DNA from: a virus
Taxonomy: Duplodnaviria > Caudoviricetes
Reading direction: 5' to 3' (one strand)
IMG/VR virus record: IMGVR_UViG_3300020045_004061
Span: 1 to 37,249 of that record
DNA: 37,249 bases
In this document: piece after piece, positions 3,748-36,034 of the stretch
Position numbering within the stretch: position 1 is the first letter of the stretch
Layout: the number at the start of each line of letters is the position of its first letter
Program-made: the position numbers and the translations under genes
The notes under the pieces: model-generated
Databases searched by the model: none
What the model was told of the DNA's origin: nothing
Seen by the model: only the letters and a program-made list of their open reading frames with translations

Positions 3748-4539
3748 ATGGCAGAAGGTAAAAAAAAGGTAATCGTTTATACCGATTGGATAAGCACCTT
3801 TGATTCATTAACCGATGAGGAAGCGGGAAAGCTTATTAAACATTTCTTTCAGTATGTAAACGACCTAGAACCTAAAAGCGATAGGTTAACAGAATTATTG
3901 TTTATGCCAATAAAAGCAACACTTAAACGCGATTTAGAATCATGGGAAAAGAAGCAAGGAATAAACCGAGAAAACGGGGCAAAAGGTGGTAGACCAAAAA
4001 AACCGACTGAAACCCAAAATAACCCAATGGGTTTTTTAGAAACCCAAAATAACCCAGAAAAAGGCGTTAGTGTTAGTGTTAGTGTTAGTGATAGTGTAAT
4101 TGTAAGTGAAAAGGATATTCTTTTAAAAAAAGAAACAAAAGAATATATAGCTGAATTGCCTAAAAAATTTGACTTTAAAAAAGCACTTTTACAAATCGGA
4201 GTAATTGAATCGGTTGCTAGTGATTGGATGGCTGTTAGGAAAACCAAAAAAGCATCTAATACCGAAACTGCATTTAACGCAATACTAACTGAAATAAAAA
4301 AAACAAACCTTTCTCCAAACGATTGCATCACAGAAGCGGTTGCGCGTTCATGGCAAGGATTCAAATCACAATGGATTATTAACCAACAACAACAAAATGG
4401 AACTACAACAAAAAAGTCACTCGCTCAGCAAGCAGAAGAAATCACAGCCAGAGTATTTGGATATGATACAAGCCAAAGCAATGGCAATGAACACACCAAT
4501 ACGAATTTCGAAGAAGCTGATTGGCGCAATGCTGAATGA
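3748..4539 (+). CDS. Phage replication initiator / replisome organiser (DUF6291-like N-terminus)
   Basis: LTDEEAGKLIK..F.Y, RENGAKGGRPKK, low-complexity VSVSVS linker, helical C-terminal domain. Confidence 0.75.
   Translation: MAEGKKKVIVYTDWISTFDSLTDEEAGKLIKHFFQYVNDLEPKSDRLTELLFMPIKATLKRDLESWEKKQGINRENGAKGGRPKKPTETQNNPMGFLETQNNPEKGVSVSVSVSDSVIVSEKDILLKKETKEYIAELPKKFDFKKALLQIGVIESVASDWMAVRKTKKASNTETAFNAILTEIKKTNLSPNDCITEAVARSWQGFKSQWIINQQQQNGTTTKKSLAQQAEEITARVFGYDTSQSNGNEHTNTNFEEADWRNAE
4009..4095 (+). repeat. Iteron-like repeats, candidate replication origin
   Basis: 18-bp GAAACCCAAAATAACCCA at 4009 and 4039; (GTTAGT)x4 at 4066-4089; inside the initiator gene as in lambda O. Confidence 0.6.
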
Positions 4540-5236
4540 AGATGATTTTTGCAAAGACAATCTTAACAGGCTATCAGGTGCGTTGGTTTACATTACTCGC
4601 GTGTACTACGGATTAAACCCCGAAAACGTGCCCGAAGATATTTTTCGTCTGGCAGTTCAAATAATTTGCGAGAAATATCCAACACTTACATTCGAACAAT
4701 TGAATTTAACATACCTAGAACAAACGATTGAAAAGAAACAAGGTGTTTCCCTTACAAAGGATGAGTTAATCGCTCCAATAGAAGATATGACACGTAAAAA
4801 GCATATCGTTAAAACGATTGAAGAAAACGAAAAACAGGAATACGAAAAACAACAGGCAGAAAAGGAAATAATCCGAAACGAATACAACACTGCTAAACAA
4901 CTGTATTTTGATTCCATGGGTACTGGAATCTACCAAGGAAGCGTATTTCAAGCATCTATGATTATGGAAGCTTTCGCCTCGTTACTTTCGGACGCTGAAA
5001 AAATCGCAATTGGAAAAGAAGCGTTTGAAGATTATCGCTATGAAATGCAAGTTTTCGGAACGGAACAAAGTATGTTTTTTGGTACGGACGTATTTCAAGT
5101 GCCAACAGGATTCGGAATGTACAGCAACGGAAAGCCAAAACCAGCGCATCATTTCTTCATCTCAATGCGTGTTGTGAATAGCGCGTTACAAAGGAATACA
5201 ATTGATAATTTGGGGTGGAAATTTATTGAGGATTGA
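4397..5236 (+). CDS. Hypothetical replication-associated protein
   Basis: Long ORF after the initiator; likely ATG 4397 after an A-rich leader, overlapping the initiator by 143 nt. Confidence 0.6.
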   Translation: MELQQKSHSLSKQKKSQPEYLDMIQAKAMAMNTPIRISKKLIGAMLNEDDFCKDNLNRLSGALVYITRVYYGLNPENVPEDIFRLAVQIICEKYPTLTFEQLNLTYLEQTIEKKQGVSLTKDELIAPIEDMTRKKHIVKTIEENEKQEYEKQQAEKEIIRNEYNTAKQLYFDSMGTGIYQGSVFQASMIMEAFASLLSDAEKIAIGKEAFEDYRYEMQVFGTEQSMFFGTDVFQVPTGFGMYSNGKPKPAHHFFISMRVVNSALQRNTIDNLGWKFIED

Positions 5237-10796: not shown

Positions 10797-11060
10797 ATGA
10801 AAACAGAAAAAGAAACAAACGAATTAGTTTTTGAATCGTATTTAACAGACGTACCAACAACAACAAGCGAGCTACAAAGTAAAGTAGACGAATACGCGCA
10901 AATGAGCGTACAAGAACAAAACGCTATTTTGATAGTTGAAACAAAGTTAATGCACCGTAAGATTATGCGTGTTCAACGTGTCGTTTCGATTGTGTTCAAT
11001 TTGACTTTGATTGGGGTTGCGTTAGGTGTGACTTGGTTATTCATTAAAAACTTTGCGTGA
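10797..11060 (+). CDS. Hypothetical membrane protein
   Basis: C-terminal TM segment; coupled to terS. Confidence 0.55.
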   Translation: MKTEKETNELVFESYLTDVPTTTSELQSKVDEYAQMSVQEQNAILIVETKLMHRKIMRVQRVVSIVFNLTLIGVALGVTWLFIKNFA

Positions 11061-11542
11061 TGGCTGCTGAAAAAGGGAATCAATGGTGGAAGCTACGAAG
11101 CAAACACGGACGAGATAGGCTATTTGCAAGCCCCGAATTGCTTTGGGAATCTGCTTGCGAGTATTTCAATTGGTGTGACGAAAACCCATGGATTACCGAA
11201 AAATCAGGCTCAAATACTAACGGTTCTTTTCACGAAGAAAAGCCTACACAAAGACCATATTCTTTGACTGGGTGGTTCTTGTATATTGGTTGTTCGGAAA
11301 CTTGGTTAATAAATTTCAAGGCTACTTGCGGAAATGATTTTTTAAGGGTCATTGAACAAGTCGAACAAGTTATCCGCAAACAACAATGGGAAGGTGCAAC
11401 AGTAGGAGCGTTCAAAGAGAACATTATCGCACGTACATTAGGCTTAAAAGATGCTTCAGATTTGACAACAAACGGAAAAGATTTACCAGCGGTCAATCCA
11501 AGTATTACAGTAGAAATAATTAAACCAAAGGAAAGTGAATAA
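11060..11542 (+). CDS. terS: Terminase small subunit, P22 gp3-like
   Basis: MAA.KGNQWWKLRSKHGRD.LF.SPE.LWE.ACEYF.W and NIIAR.LGL. Confidence 0.9.
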   Translation: MAAEKGNQWWKLRSKHGRDRLFASPELLWESACEYFNWCDENPWITEKSGSNTNGSFHEEKPTQRPYSLTGWFLYIGCSETWLINFKATCGNDFLRVIEQVEQVIRKQQWEGATVGAFKENIIARTLGLKDASDLTTNGKDLPAVNPSITVEIIKPKESE

Positions 11543-13704
11543 TGCAAGCTACAATAGTATTCGAAAAGAATTGGAAAGCGATTAACGAGCGTAATGAAGA
11601 CGGAAGTAGAAAGTACAGATACATTATCAACACGGGTAGTTCGCGTTCATCTAAAACCTATTCAATATTACAAAGCCATTATTTAACCGCTTTCTCAAAG
11701 CCAAACTATCGCGTTTCAATTTGGCGCGAAACAAAGCAAGATGTAAAAAATACGGTATTAGCAGACTTTCGAAAAGCGTTACCTAATTTTCCACACAATG
11801 AATCGGTAACGTTTAATAAAACCGAATCAATTTATACGTTCCCGAATAATTCAACAGTTGAGATTTGCGGGGGTGATGACACGAACCGCGTACATGGTTT
11901 CCAAGGTGATGTTGCGCATTTTAACGAGCCTTACAAGATGCCGAAAGAAGTATTTGACCAAATTGATATGCGTACTTCCGATTACATTGTAATAGATTGG
12001 AATCCGAAAGCAAACCATTGGATTGATGAGTTGTCAAAACAAGATAACGCAATTGTCATTCATAGCACATTCAAAGATAACCCATTTTGTCCCGAACAAC
12101 AGCGTTTGAAAATACTATCCTACGAACCAACTGAATACAATACGCAACAGAATACAGCTAACGAATGGATGTGGCAAGTTTACGGACTTGGAATGAAAGC
12201 AGAGAAGCCAAACCGAATCTTTAAATGGAATAAAATTGCACGATCTAAATTCGATGAATTAACACCAAAAGCCGAATTGATTTGCATTGACTGGGGAAAA
12301 TCCGACCCGTGGGGAATATTGCACATGAAGTATTATGATGGTGCTATTTATTTACGTGAATTGAACTACAAATCGGAAAACGAATGGCGTGAATCATTAC
12401 CACCAACCGAGCAGATTAAAATTGGAAGGGATGAAGAAGGTTTAGGAATTGTCGTGTGGATGATGAATAGGTTGAATATTTCAAAGTCCATGGACGTTGT
12501 TTGTGATAATAACCGACCTTTAAAAATCGCTGCATTACGTCGGGCGGGTTGGGAACGTGCATTTCCAGCATCAAAGCCAAAAGGTTCGATTTTAGAAGGT
12601 ATTGATATACTGCAAAACGTCGATGTTTATTTCACCGACGATTCACCAAATATTGAAATGGAACAGGAAAACTATTCATGGAAAGTTGACCGATACGGAA
12701 TTGTTTTAGAGGAAGCAGAAGACGCTTATAACCATTGCTTTGTTGGTAGCACGATGATAAACACAATTGAAGGTCAAAAAAGAATTGATTCAATTAAACT
12801 AAATGATTATGTTTTAACAAGAGAAGGTTACAAAAAAGTACTTAATAAGTATAATAACGGACTAAAAAAGGTTAATGTATATTTGATGCAGTTCGATACT
12901 TTTTCAGTATATTTGCATTCAACAGAAAATCATAAGGTAAAATGCGAAAAAGGATGGATGAAAATATCAGAATTGAAACAGGGGCAAACGGTTTACCTAT
13001 GCAACAATTCAACGGAAAAGAATACTATTTATACCCAAATGAAAGGTATTTTTCAAAAGGCAAAAACAGAATGCATCGTATTGTTTGGGAGTTTCATAAT
13101 GGCTTTATTGAAAAAGGATTTCATATACACCACAAAAACAGAAACACATGGGACAATAGAATTGAAAACCTTGAAATCGTTGAGTCTAAAAAACACTTAT
13201 CCGAACATATCAAAAAAAGGTTTGCAGAAAATCCAGAATGGGTTAAACTTTTTCATCAAAAAGGTATTCAAGAAGCTAAAAAATGGCACGCTTCAGAAGA
13301 AGGAAAGCAATGGCATAGAGAACAAGCTAAAACGACAGGATTCGGAAATAGAACCTATGGAAATTCAAAATGCGAAGTTTGTTCAACAGAATTTGAAATC
13401 AAAACTAAAGGACAAAGATTTTGCCATAACAATTGTAAGTCAAAATGGAGAAGAATGCAAAGAATTGACATCATCAAAGTTGAATGCGTTTCTTGCGGAA
13501 AAGAGTTTGAAAAAGATAAATATTCAAAAGCAAAAACTTGTTCAAATAAGTGTTCTTGGAACTTACGAAGAAGTTGTCTATGATTTACAAATTGATGAAA
13601 AACATGAATATTTTGCAAACGGGGTCTTAGTTCATAATTGCACAGACCCCGCGCGCTATGGTGCGCTACACTTACAAAAGTCTGGGATTATTCGAGTGGT
13701 ATAA
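11542..13704 (+). CDS. terL: Terminase large subunit (PBSX/Terminase_3-like) with intein; 419 aa after splicing
   Basis: Walker A GSSRSSKT, HFNE, DWNP, STFKDNPF, IDWG; NH|C.D..RY nuclease motif split by the intein. Confidence 0.93.
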   Translation: MQATIVFEKNWKAINERNEDGSRKYRYIINTGSSRSSKTYSILQSHYLTAFSKPNYRVSIWRETKQDVKNTVLADFRKALPNFPHNESVTFNKTESIYTFPNNSTVEICGGDDTNRVHGFQGDVAHFNEPYKMPKEVFDQIDMRTSDYIVIDWNPKANHWIDELSKQDNAIVIHSTFKDNPFCPEQQRLKILSYEPTEYNTQQNTANEWMWQVYGLGMKAEKPNRIFKWNKIARSKFDELTPKAELICIDWGKSDPWGILHMKYYDGAIYLRELNYKSENEWRESLPPTEQIKIGRDEEGLGIVVWMMNRLNISKSMDVVCDNNRPLKIAALRRAGWERAFPASKPKGSILEGIDILQNVDVYFTDDSPNIEMEQENYSWKVDRYGIVLEEAEDAYNHCFVGSTMINTIEGQKRIDSIKLNDYVLTREGYKKVLNKYNNGLKKVNVYLMQFDTFSVYLHSTENHKVKCEKGWMKISELKQGQTVYLCNNSTEKNTIYTQMKGIFQKAKTECIVLFGSFIMALLKKDFIYTTKTETHGTIELKTLKSLSLKNTYPNISKKGLQKIQNGLNFFIKKVFKKLKNGTLQKKESNGIENKLKRQDSEIEPMEIQNAKFVQQNLKSKLKDKDFAITIVSQNGEECKELTSSKLNAFLAEKSLKKINIQKQKLVQISVLGTYEEVVYDLQIDEKHEYFANGVLVHNCTDPARYGALHLQKSGIIRVV
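12736..13638 (+). mobile_element. Intein, 301 aa (TerL residues 399-699)
   Basis: Block A CFVGSTMI, block B STENHKV, block F VYDLQI, block G YFANGVLVHN, +1 residue Cys. Confidence 0.93.
12942..13583 (+). CDS. HNH endonuclease with C-terminal zinc fingers, nested out of frame in the intein
   Basis: MHRIVWEFHNG...IHHKNRNTWDNRIENL..H...H; CxxC..FCxxxC and CxxC..TCSxxC; alternative start at 12954. Confidence 0.85.
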   Translation: MRKRMDENIRIETGANGLPMQQFNGKEYYLYPNERYFSKGKNRMHRIVWEFHNGFIEKGFHIHHKNRNTWDNRIENLEIVESKKHLSEHIKKRFAENPEWVKLFHQKGIQEAKKWHASEEGKQWHREQAKTTGFGNRTYGNSKCEVCSTEFEIKTKGQRFCHNNCKSKWRRMQRIDIIKVECVSCGKEFEKDKYSKAKTCSNKCSWNLRRSCL

Positions 13705-14920
13705 CCTTTTCAGCTTCTTCACGTGAATAGCCAGAATCCAAAAGTGTTTTAATAGCCTTGGTTTTTATTTCCATAACTCGTGCGTGTGTTAATTCATCTT
13801 TTTGCAACGCTTGGATATGTGAATAGTCAAGTTCAAGCCATTCATCATCAGGTAAACGTAAACCTTTCGACATAGTAGAACAAAAGTCGTTTGCAAATGG
13901 AATAATTGAATCTTGGTAAGCCATTCGTAATCCTTCATTCAAATTCGCTTGAATCTTTGATTTTTCTTTACTGAAGATGTTGTCATTTAAACCAACCATA
14001 TCTATAATCTTCTTCATATCCTCGGAAATTTCCTCAAATAGCATCATTTGATTGATTGGATAAGCCGTTGATTCAAACTTTAGATTTGCGTTCGATATTG
14101 CTATTGCACTTTGACCGTCAAAATGACCATGACTTTCCTGTGAAAATTGCTTTTCGATTTCTTTTCTATCTTCGCTACCAACCGCAACAGCACCTATTTC
14201 ATCTTTTGTTGAATTGGATATAAACCCAAGCGCACCACGTTTGTTGATATTCGCGTTTCGGAATCCATACGCTCCACGAATATTTGTGATAGGCATATTC
14301 AACGCAATCAAAGGTGAAACTCCCATGAAAGGGTTTTCCGCTGAAATGTTTTTGTGATGGATTAACTCGGATGGTGCGAAATCTCGCTTTGTTTCTCCGT
14401 AGTTTTCAAGAACGTACTTTTCTATAATTTCCTCGATTGTTGACTGTTCCCAACGCTTTTTGGTAAGTTCGATTTTTATTTTGTCGGGTGGTAAATTATT
14501 CATTACCGTTGGAAGCGTTGAAAGTGAACTACCATAAACAGGGTATGTGATACGGTTGCCATAAATCAAATAATGCAACGCGCTTTCAATTTTCCATTCT
14601 TCACCACTTTGTAACGGGTTTGGATTTTCAAGGAATCTAACAAGTTCAGAATCTTCAATGACTTTACCCTGTTTCGTTCCGTTCATTTTCTTATGAACAA
14701 ATCTACCATTTGAAAACATGGATGCAAATCGGTCAAAAACGATTTTAATTTCGGGTGTTGTGTTATAATATTGAAACTCTTTACCGTCAATTGTTAGCCA
14801 GATTTCGCGTTCATTTCCCACATAAGGGTAGTAATTTAAAGGCGGTGTTCTTGTGAAATTATCCGTACCACCCATACGACCCCATTTAATATCTAACTTT
14901 CCGATACTGAAAAAACCCAT
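13688..14920 (-). CDS. Portal protein (HK97-like), inverted
   Basis: LENPNPLQSG.EW, LIYGN, IIHH-like ELIHH, FMGVSPL, AYQDSIIPF, LDYSHIQALQ. Confidence 0.88.
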   Translation of the reverse strand: MGFFSIGKLDIKWGRMGGTDNFTRTPPLNYYPYVGNEREIWLTIDGKEFQYYNTTPEIKIVFDRFASMFSNGRFVHKKMNGTKQGKVIEDSELVRFLENPNPLQSGEEWKIESALHYLIYGNRITYPVYGSSLSTLPTVMNNLPPDKIKIELTKKRWEQSTIEEIIEKYVLENYGETKRDFAPSELIHHKNISAENPFMGVSPLIALNMPITNIRGAYGFRNANINKRGALGFISNSTKDEIGAVAVGSEDRKEIEKQFSQESHGHFDGQSAIAISNANLKFESTAYPINQMMLFEEISEDMKKIIDMVGLNDNIFSKEKSKIQANLNEGLRMAYQDSIIPFANDFCSTMSKGLRLPDDEWLELDYSHIQALQKDELTHARVMEIKTKAIKTLLDSGYSREEAEKVIPLE

Positions 14921-35338: not shown

Positions 35339-36034
35339 TCAAAAGAGCGATTGTTGAGCAACGTGGTTGATAATTCTTTGTTTTGTATCTGTAAAATATT
35401 CTTTGTCAATTTCACAAGCGGTTAATGTTAAGTTCATTTTTTCAAATCTGTTCATTTCTTCAATAGCTATTGCGTGACTTCCAGAACCAAGATGTGTATC
35501 AATTATTTTAAATCCTTCTTTTGCATAGTTTTTTAAAATCCATTTATACAGCTGAGTAGGTTTTTGAGTTGGGTGTATTCTTTTATCCGTTTGCTGTCCT
35601 CTGTGGTATCTAAAAAACCTTACAGCAGTATCAAATGAAGTCCAAGCCATTTCTCCATCAGCAAACGAAAAACCATCATTTTTTTTATCCCAAATTAACC
35701 AACATTTACTATCAAATGGTATTTTAGAAATAAAATGATTTGCCCCCCAAATGATTTGATTTTTTGAAACTCTTTGTAATTCCATAAAATATTCAATACT
35801 TGGTGTTTCATTATCCCAATCTTTTACTTTATGTTTTGAACCACTCCAATTAGCATTACCATCCATTCCAATTCCATAAGGCGGGTCAACAATAGCTAAA
35901 TCAAAGTAATTATCTGGATAACGGCTCATTAACTCCATATTATCCTCACACGTTATCGTTAAACCACCCACAACTAGCGGTAACACGTGTTTGGAGCAAT
36001 GCGGGGTTTGGTCTTTAATTTTAATATCTTGCAT
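35339..36034 (-). CDS. N6-adenine/N4-cytosine DNA methyltransferase (cassette 2)
   Basis: DLAIVDPPYG, IIWGANHF, HPTQKP, DTHLGSGS. Confidence 0.92.
   Translation of the reverse strand: MQDIKIKDQTPHCSKHVLPLVVGGLTITCEDNMELMSRYPDNYFDLAIVDPPYGIGMDGNANWSGSKHKVKDWDNETPSIEYFMELQRVSKNQIIWGANHFISKIPFDSKCWLIWDKKNDGFSFADGEMAWTSFDTAVRFFRYHRGQQTDKRIHPTQKPTQLYKWILKNYAKEGFKIIDTHLGSGSHAIAIEEMNRFEKMNLTLTACEIDKEYFTDTKQRIINHVAQQSLF

What the first reader, a model, noticed from the sequence alone, without database searches (positions are those of the whole stretch)
12736..13638. Terminase intein with its homing endonuclease in an alternative overlapping frame
Seen: the intein frame has intact splicing blocks but its ~200-aa middle is K/N/Q-rich with no recognisable nuclease motif. 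A different frame (12942-13583) encodes a clear HNH plus two Cys4 zinc-finger modules. Both frames stay open across 642 nt of AT-rich DNA. Established: intein endonucleases are normally in-frame domains between blocks B and F. Inference: a dual-coding selfish element in which the nuclease is translated separately and the intein splices out the off-frame filler, uncoupling nuclease expression from TerL.
Basis: partly seen in the sequence, partly recalled or inferred. Interest (0 to 1): 0.87.

Follow-up and report, generated by a model that had tools for sequence, protein, structure and literature searches.

The report
Terminase intein with overprinted HNH gene
A phage DNA-packaging gene carries a predicted self-splicing insert (intein) whose middle also encodes, one base out of step, an intact HNH nuclease gene that is likely made as a separate protein and likely spreads the insert; the layout is real and common in phages, but this kind of element has been in print since 2015.

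Summary
Confirmed. TerL (11542-13704) holds a 301-aa class 1 intein (12736-13638) inside the nuclease H-x-x-D motif. An I-HmuI-like HNH gene with two Cys4 fingers lies in frame 3 (likely start 12954, stop 13583). It is not an assembly error: 119 of 170 relative clusters share the layout and frame offset, none is in frame, and 58 of 61 inteins found without using the HNH carry an intact HNH frame. Selection acts on the HNH (dN/dS 0.18); the filler only avoids stops (1.17). Separate expression is inferred from a fixed ATG built from the intein's Gly-Trp codons, a Bacteroidota-type promoter box 46 nt upstream (a subclade trait) and Shine-Dalgarno sites in other lineages. Patchy presence among close terL alleles fits homing. 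The same HNH family also occurs free-standing beside terL, between split-intein halves, and deleted to mini-inteins. The kind is known: brucellaphage TerL (2015), actinophages (2025), cyanobacterial dnaX (2026); this scan also found it in at least 9 other genomes. I found no paper on this site, family and continuum. New variant of a known kind; splicing, expression and cutting are untested.

The parts
11057..11542 (+). Small terminase (P22 gp3-like)
   Evidence: Pfam GP3_package E 9e-26
11542..13704 (+). Large terminase precursor, 720 aa (398-aa N-extein, 301-aa intein, 21-aa C-extein); predicted spliced product 419 aa
   Evidence: Terminase_3; intein-free relatives span 407-482 aa where near full length
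12736..13005 (+). Intein N-terminal Hint part: C1, block B T63-x-x-H66, G73-W74
   Evidence: pLDDT over 90 for residues 1-90; Foldseek gp41-1 intein E 3.9e-7
13006..13518 (+). Off-frame filler in the intein frame (about 170 aa)
   Evidence: mostly pLDDT under 70; dN/dS 1.17 across relatives
13519..13638 (+). Intein C-terminal Hint part: block F V281-Y282-D283, block G H300-N301
13639..13704 (+). C-extein: Cys+1, then T-D-P-A-R-Y; carries the Asp of the nuclease H-x-x-D motif
12954..13583 (+). Nested HNH gene in frame 3 relative to TerL, 209 aa (alternative upstream ATG at 12942, 213 aa)
   Evidence: model pLDDT 95
13071..13193 (+). HNH_3 (I-HmuI-like) catalytic core
   Evidence: Pfam E 5.5e-15; I-HmuI 1U3E by profile E 1.6e-4, VIA Z 6.6
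13371..13436 (+). Cys4 zinc finger 1 (C144, C147, C161, C165)
   Evidence: invariant in 64 aligned homologues
13485..13553 (+). Cys4 zinc finger 2 (C182, C185, C200, C204); absent from about half of nested relatives
12908..12915 (+). Putative Bacteroidota -7 promoter box TATATTTG, 46 nt before the HNH ATG (a second copy at 12878-12885)
   Evidence: consensus from PMC6847099
12952..12957 (+). GGA-TGG (intein Gly73-Trp74) containing the HNH ATG
13579..13584 (+). TAT-GAT (intein block F Tyr-Asp) containing the HNH stop TGA

Best explanation
This is a terminase intein whose middle carries a complete HNH nuclease gene one base out of step; the intein likely splices itself out to give a 419-aa terminase, while the nuclease is likely made as a separate 209-aa protein that would nick intein-free terL alleles and so copy the whole insert into them. 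Steps: (1) Shown: both frames are open, the splicing residues are intact, and the insert splits the nuclease metal-binding H-x-x-D motif. (2) Inferred: splicing is essential, because the equivalent SPP1 residues are needed for cleavage and packaging, so stops in the intein frame are purged. (3) Inferred: the HNH starts at ATG 12954, probably on its own transcript from an internal Bacteroidota-type promoter, or else by internal initiation on the terS-terL message. (4) Inferred: it nicks near the H-x-x-D codons of empty alleles during co-infection, and repair copies the intein plus the Cys+1 codon. (5) Shown by dN/dS: the filler is passive. (6) Inferred origin: a free-standing HNH gene from beside terL entered a mini-intein at this site. 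This frame offset is the cheap one: about 4 stops to remove instead of about 26.
For: Same layout and frame offset in 168 of 229 family-level loci, 119 of 170 clusters at 90% identity, none in frame. HNH-independent sample: 58 of 61 intact. dN/dS 0.18 (HNH) against 1.17 (filler) in 28 disjoint pairs; the empty +1 frame of free and split genes gives 1.14 in 7 pairs; that frame holds a mean of 7.3 stops in 19 free-standing genes. An ATG precedes the core in 102 of 107 nested loci against 24.9 expected, and lies exactly 58 codons before the HH motif in 72 of 119. Gly before the Trp is GGA in 60 of 67, against 508 of 1669 extein Gly codons and 6 of 15 in split inteins. TAnnTTTG lies upstream in 40 of 75 of the window's group against a mean of 3.5 (max 10 in 500) after synonymous resampling. 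Other nested lineages have SD sites in 18 of 38 against 18 of 117 control ATGs, p 0.002. Patchy presence: 20 of 21 TerL relatives with a complete site are empty; the window, L013 and L044 each nest among empty alleles; L071 and L090 have 93% identical splicing ends in 41% identical exteins. Site.
Against: No experiment and no expression data. The promoter box is in only 11 of 34 clusters at 65% identity and 24 of the 36 copies at -46 are one octamer, so it may have arisen only once or a few times. The A-rich start context coincides with conserved Lys-Thr codons. My 'true start' control for SD was weak (5 of 24 TerL first ATGs). dN/dS pairs were picked by HNH identity, which favours HNH conservation. 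The closest nested HNHs are only 49-59% identical to the window's, so recent homing of this very copy is not shown. Patchiness could also come from repeated precise loss. The HNH tree is FastTree with a midpoint root and does not order the states.
Confidence: 0.83

Rival explanations
1. The element splices and the HNH gene is intact, but this copy no longer homes; it is a recent relic on its way to a mini-intein.
For: Mini-inteins exist at the site (3 of 61), and L294 keeps fused first and last pieces of the HNH frame, so decay by deletion happens. L358 has lost both zinc fingers.
Against: The window's ORF keeps all catalytic His/Asn residues, all eight Cys, the conserved ATG and the promoter box; family dN/dS is 0.18.
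Confidence: 0.07
2. The HNH is reached by a -1 ribosomal frameshift from the TerL frame, giving a TerL-IntN-HNH fusion.
For: The HNH frame opens at 12936, inside the intein N-part, and is the -1 frame, the usual direction of programmed frameshifts (own knowledge).
Against: A fixed ATG under synonymous selection is not needed for a frameshift. By eye I see no X XXY YYZ heptamer in the TerL frame from 12936 to 13030 (no script was run for this). Folding of 12900-12990 is unremarkable, z -1.05.
Confidence: 0.05
3. The HNH is a packaging cofactor of terminase, like HK97 gp74, kept for the phage's benefit.
For: The family stays at terL in nested, split and free forms. The brucellaphage paper raises this link, citing Kala et al. 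2014.
Against: The intein-free close relatives L006-L012 and L014-L028 have no family member in the fetched flanks (up to 2.5 kb); only two weak 19-bit hits. The nearest solved relative is the homing nicker I-HmuI. The SPP1-type TerL suggests headful packaging, not cos cleavage (inference).
Confidence: 0.04
4. Two compensating assembly errors moved an ordinary in-frame HNH out of frame.
For: The window's own reads were not available.
Against: Hundreds of independent contigs and four cultured phages show the same offset and none is in frame. The HNH ORF has its own ATG and stop overlapping the splicing blocks.
Confidence: 0.01

Closest known systems
Brucellaphage Tb/Pr terL intein with out-of-frame HNH (PMC4422536, 2015; GenBank JN939331 ORF07/ORF08)
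   Same: [quoted passage not shown]
   Different: Tb's intein is in the ATPase domain just before Walker B, its HNH is in frame 2, the fingers precede the core, and it scores only 17 bits on my family profile, against 145-215 for the four cultured members with a near-whole gene. Different site, frame and nuclease family.
Actinobacteriophage inteins with an endonuclease VII-like HEN in frame 3 (Gosselin, Arsenault, Gogarten, bioRxiv 10.1101/2025.01.02.630785)
   Same: Same strand, same frame 3, unstructured filler, proposed origin from a free-standing HEN; TerL is among the hosts of the non-canonical inteins.
   Different: EndoVII-like (IPR004211) rather than HNH_3; called rare there, whereas this family has about 1800 stretches estimated in the viral collection. 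Their supplements and Figure 3E could not be seen, so overlap of members is not excluded.
Cyanobacterial dnaX intein with out-of-frame LAGLIDADG HE (Phillips et al., bioRxiv 10.64898/2026.09.14.751524)
   Same: Overlapping HE under purifying selection, relaxed filler, SD before the nested start, mini and empty alleles.
   Different: LAGLIDADG, chromosomal dnaX host; no split or free-standing forms in the parts I read.
ShiLan element (Arsenault et al. 2025, PMC11855218)
   Same: Frame-3 HNH with zinc fingers inside an open host frame.
   Different: No splicing domain; host is a methylase.
Fractured genes with split inteins (Dassa et al. 2009, PMC2677866)
   Same: The split members of this family have the IntN-stop, nuclease, overlapping IntC layout.
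   Different: Dassa's nucleases are GIY-YIG and Vsr-like; the step they propose for rejoining puts the nuclease in frame, whereas here the contiguous form keeps it out of frame.
I-HmuI (PDB 1U3E)
   Same: Closest solved relative of the nuclease core.
   Different: Intron-encoded (own knowledge); the match covers only residues 2-95, and the C-terminal part here is a long helix plus Cys4 fingers.

Membership tests
Class 1 intein | Cys/Ser at position 1, block B T-x-x-H, block F Asp, C-terminal His-Asn, Cys/Ser/Thr at +1 | tested here: met
   C1, T63/H66, D283, H300-N301, Cys+1
Class 1 intein | Hint fold formed by the N- and C-terminal parts | tested here: met
   Model pLDDT over 90 for those parts; 37 PDB matches at E under 0.001, best gp41-1
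Class 1 intein | In-frame insertion absent from homologous alleles | tested here: met
   20 intein-free alleles read through the site
Class 1 intein | Protein splicing activity | not testable with these tools
   Inferred from the essential site
Canonical bifunctional intein | Endonuclease in frame between blocks B and F | tested here: not met
   No nuclease family in the intein frame; 0 in-frame among 229 loci
Intein with out-of-frame HEN (non-canonical, Gosselin 2025) | Complete nuclease ORF in another frame within an open intein frame | tested here: met
Intein with out-of-frame HEN (non-canonical, Gosselin 2025) | Signs of horizontal spread | tested here: met
   Patchy on the extein tree; similar inteins in distant exteins
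EndoVII-like frame-3 subtype (Gosselin 2025) | Nuclease of the endonuclease VII family | tested here: not met
   Pfam gives HNH_3 and no EndoVII family at E up to 0.1; best solved relative is I-HmuI
Brucellaphage terL intein element | Same insertion site, frame and HNH family | tested here: not met
I-HmuI-like HNH homing endonuclease | HNH_3 core with catalytic His/Asn intact | tested here: met
I-HmuI-like HNH homing endonuclease | Site-specific nicking of the empty allele | not testable with these tools
   needs an assay
gp74-like terminase cofactor HNH | Required by the packaging module, so kept in related phages | tested here: not met
   Absent from the fetched flanks of 22 related terL loci without a nested intein, 2 of them truncated before the site

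The most novel reading that the evidence does not exclude
Overprinting is a stable, successful end state for this lineage, not a rare passing stage. One HNH family at one terL site spans free-standing, split-intein, contiguous dual-coding and mini-intein states across many bacterial phyla without moving in frame, and in the Bacteroidota-phage branch the intein's own codons have been taken over as the nuclease's promoter, start and stop. That would make the Dassa/Gosselin model of how inteins gain nucleases directly testable in one family, with cultured phages for the nested (TJE1) and split (CL2) states.
Probability: 0.5. Interest if true: 0.6.

Novelty: new variant of a known kind. Interest (0 to 1): 0.4.

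Why it matters
Published surveys call out-of-frame intein nucleases rare; here one family is large and sits at an essential active-site motif of TerL. It gives a natural series (free, split, nested, mini) for testing how inteins acquire homing nucleases, and a clean case of a 200-codon overlap made by stop avoidance alone. In practice, annotation hides it: the nested gene is unannotated in phiCDHM19, TJE1, Highwayman and LS06-2018-MD07, and the 21-90 aa C-terminal piece of split terL is missed or unnamed in CL2 and BL3. It is not a new kind of system.

Tried and rejected
Read check: no RNA holder listed and no run holding half the words. One contig of run X1 covers 13394-13657 with 2 differences and no gaps; the rest of the overlap is uncovered, so reads were not decisive. 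Sigma-70 scan: 4 sites against 2.7 +/- 1.7 expected, so the 10/12 match at 12827-12855 is not counted. RNA structure at the HNH start is not significant. Foldseek of the HNH model gave no match at E under 0.001 (best I-HmuI, 0.13). A scan with the intein alignment could not run for lack of a conserved stretch. Invariant HH and Cys counts in HNH-found loci are partly circular, since the search patterns held those residues, so I rely on the block-G sample. In that sample 46 of 119 loci were dropped for short upstream sequence and 12 as duplicates. Literature searches with no hit: intein + terminase large subunit + HNH + overlapping reading frame; Brucella phage + intein + terminase. Searches found the papers cited; none describes this site and family in the parts I read. 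I did not search by the names of the cultured carriers, and subscription journals and bioRxiv supplements were not visible. The by-sequence look-up in earlier scan findings was empty. Assembly error, gp74-like cofactor and frameshift fusion were considered and ranked low.

Full report
Observation. The window is a 37-kb virus record whose closest cultured relatives by TerL are Flavobacterium phages (47%); by bit score the best capsid matches are too (33%), so a Bacteroidota host is likely. TerL (11542-13704, 720 aa) carries a 903-nt in-frame insert, NH|C...HN|C, with Hint hits and no nuclease hit. A second ORF in frame 3 (12942-13583) is a clear HNH_3 protein with two Cys4 fingers. With the HNH protein fixed, the intein frame is open in 129 of 20,000 synonymous recodings (mean 4.3 stops; the other frame would hold 26); other genes of the window have 11-17 stops per 213 codons in that frame. 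AlphaFold models the intein ends as a confident Hint domain around a low-confidence filler and the HNH at pLDDT 95, nearest to I-HmuI (profile E 1.6e-4; Z 6.6 over 83 residues, rmsd 4.1; Foldseek only E 0.13).

The site. An intein-free relative aligns to the SPP1 terminase nuclease domain, with NHLCD matching NHTID. I take this as the H400-x-x-D403 metal site, whose mutation blocks cleavage and impairs packaging (PMC3592435, passages). The intein sits right after the His and leaves a 21-aa C-extein, so the phage should need splicing. The 20 empty alleles have Leu, His or Thr at +1, never Cys, so the Cys codon likely travels with the element.

The family. An alignment of 64 HNH proteins fetched 240 loci from viral, genome and metagenome contigs; the viral scan estimates about 1800 matching stretches. 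Of 273 loci examined (these plus earlier loci, four phage records and the window), 229 had a family-level match. Of those, 168 are nested in a contiguous intein, always with the same offset; 8 more are spanned by the same frame with one intein end found; 28 have the intein halves in separate ORFs; 4 have one half only; 21 are free-standing; none is in frame. At 90% identity this is 119 nested, 6 partial, 26 split and 19 free among 170 clusters. By their flanks, read by eye, the nested inteins lie at or within about four residues of the same TerL motif. To avoid circularity I also sampled by the intein's C-terminal motif: 119 loci, 46 dropped as too short, 61 distinct; 58 have an intact frame-3 HNH ORF (L358 lacks both fingers) and 3 are mini-inteins of 129-136 aa. 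Cultured carriers: nested in phiCDHM19, TJE1, Highwayman and LS06-2018-MD07; split in CL2 and, with a truncated HNH, BL3; free beside terS in BP10.

Selection. In 28 disjoint pairs dN/dS is 0.18 in the HNH frame and 1.17 in the intein frame; the non-coding +1 frame of free and split genes gives 1.14 (7 pairs), so the filler shows no constraint beyond stop avoidance. Free-standing genes carry 1-14 stops in that frame (mean 7.3, n 19). Pairs were chosen by HNH identity, a mild bias.

Expression (inferred). An ATG lies before the core in 113 of 119 nested clusters; in the 107 with a usable control, 102 against 24.9 expected. In 72 it is exactly 58 codons before the HH motif, which is 12954 here. 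It is formed by the last base of the codon before the intein's Trp74: that base is A in 81 of 91 nested against 7 of 18 split inteins, and Gly there is GGA in 60 of 67 against 30% in exteins. The stop is TGA in 91 of 119, most often from the block F Tyr-Asp codons (48). In the window's group of 75 there is no SD, as expected for Bacteroidota, but a TAnnTTTG box lies upstream in 40 (36 at exactly -46), against 3.5 after synonymous resampling. All 36 fit the refined TAHHTTTG consensus of F. johnsoniae, and the window has A at -3, -6, -12 and -13 (PMC6847099, passages). Against this: only 11 of 34 deeper clusters have the box and 24 copies are one octamer, and the A-run overlaps conserved codons. 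Nested members outside this group have SD sites in 18 of 38 against 18 of 117 control ATGs, though the TerL-start control gave only 5 of 24.

Mobility (inferred). On a quick tree of 32 exteins (18 empty, 14 chosen carriers), the window groups with three empty alleles (96), L013 with four others (96) and L044 with L023 (95); at least 4 changes are needed. The tree cannot tell gain from loss. Distant exteins share close inteins (L071/L090: 93% against 41%). No close copy of the window's own intein was found.

Origin. At least 8 of 19 free-standing genes directly follow an intact terL (read by eye). Split members form mostly one branch mixed with free genes, while nested members occupy several branches (FastTree, midpoint root, order not established). 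L131 and L138 look like broken nested copies or assembly errors. In most split loci the C-half has an SD-backed start inside the 3' end of the HNH gene (best candidate per locus, no control), extending the overlap Dassa described. L294 shows a nested copy reduced to a mini-intein by deletion. The simplest reading is that a terL-targeting free HNH entered a mini-intein at its own target; whether the split or nested form came first is open.

Prior knowledge. The 2015 brucellaphage paper states an intein-encoded HNH out of frame in terL (PMC4422536, passages); I checked that it differs in site, frame and family. Gosselin et al. 2025 describe frame-3 EndoVII-like HENs and call such insertions extremely rare (abstract, passages, sections 8, 15, 28; supplements closed). 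Phillips et al. 2026 show the same per-frame selection for a LAGLIDADG in dnaX (first part, passages, section 17). ShiLan: abstract and passages. Dassa 2009: passages. Kala 2014 was seen only as cited. Earlier scan notes list 10 such findings in at least 9 genomes; one cites over 100 related loci and may be this same family, which I could not check.

Verdict. Real, selected and likely an active homing element. It works like the published out-of-frame-HEN inteins and belongs to that class; it is not a member of the brucellaphage or EndoVII subtypes. New variant of a known kind; interest 0.4.

Noticed in passing
window 13688-14920 (-): The portal gene is inverted between terL and the head genes and overlaps terL's 3' end by 17 nt. 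A similar-sized minus-strand ORF follows terL in L006-L010 and L013-L017, while L018 and L020-L024 have a plus-strand one, so it looks like a lineage trait.
   Followed up: partly
L107, L112, L118-L124, L130, L139-L144, L250-L265; phage CL2 (L275): About 21-24 clusters of natural split TerL inteins with the HNH between the halves; the C-half mostly starts 32-52 codons before block F inside the HNH gene. Possibly undescribed split inteins.
   Followed up: partly
L268:2125-4729: An HNH of this family lies antisense between a TerL N-part and an intein C-end on the other strand.
   Followed up: no
L294, L313, L354: Mini-inteins (129-136 aa); L294 and L354 sit at the same TerL motif. L294 keeps fused ends of the HNH frame. 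L294 and L354 lack the Trp that supplies the HNH start.
   Followed up: partly
L044, L046, L154, L161, L271: The insertion point drifts by about -4 to +4 residues around the H-x-x-D motif among family members.
   Followed up: no
L003-L005: These TerL genes carry a second, longer intein in the N-terminal part with an in-frame LAGLIDADG-like region (read by eye).
   Followed up: no
L273 (phage phiCD119 1-2600): The terL and nested HNH are broken into several ORFs relative to phiCDHM19; real decay or sequencing errors.
   Followed up: no
window 35339-36034 (-): Adenine/cytosine DNA methylase-like gene (Pfam N6_N4_Mtase E 1.4e-11).
   Followed up: no
window 3748-4539 and 4340-5236: Two long plus-strand ORFs overlap by up to 200 nt if the TTG start of the second is real; the first has DUF6291.
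   Followed up: no
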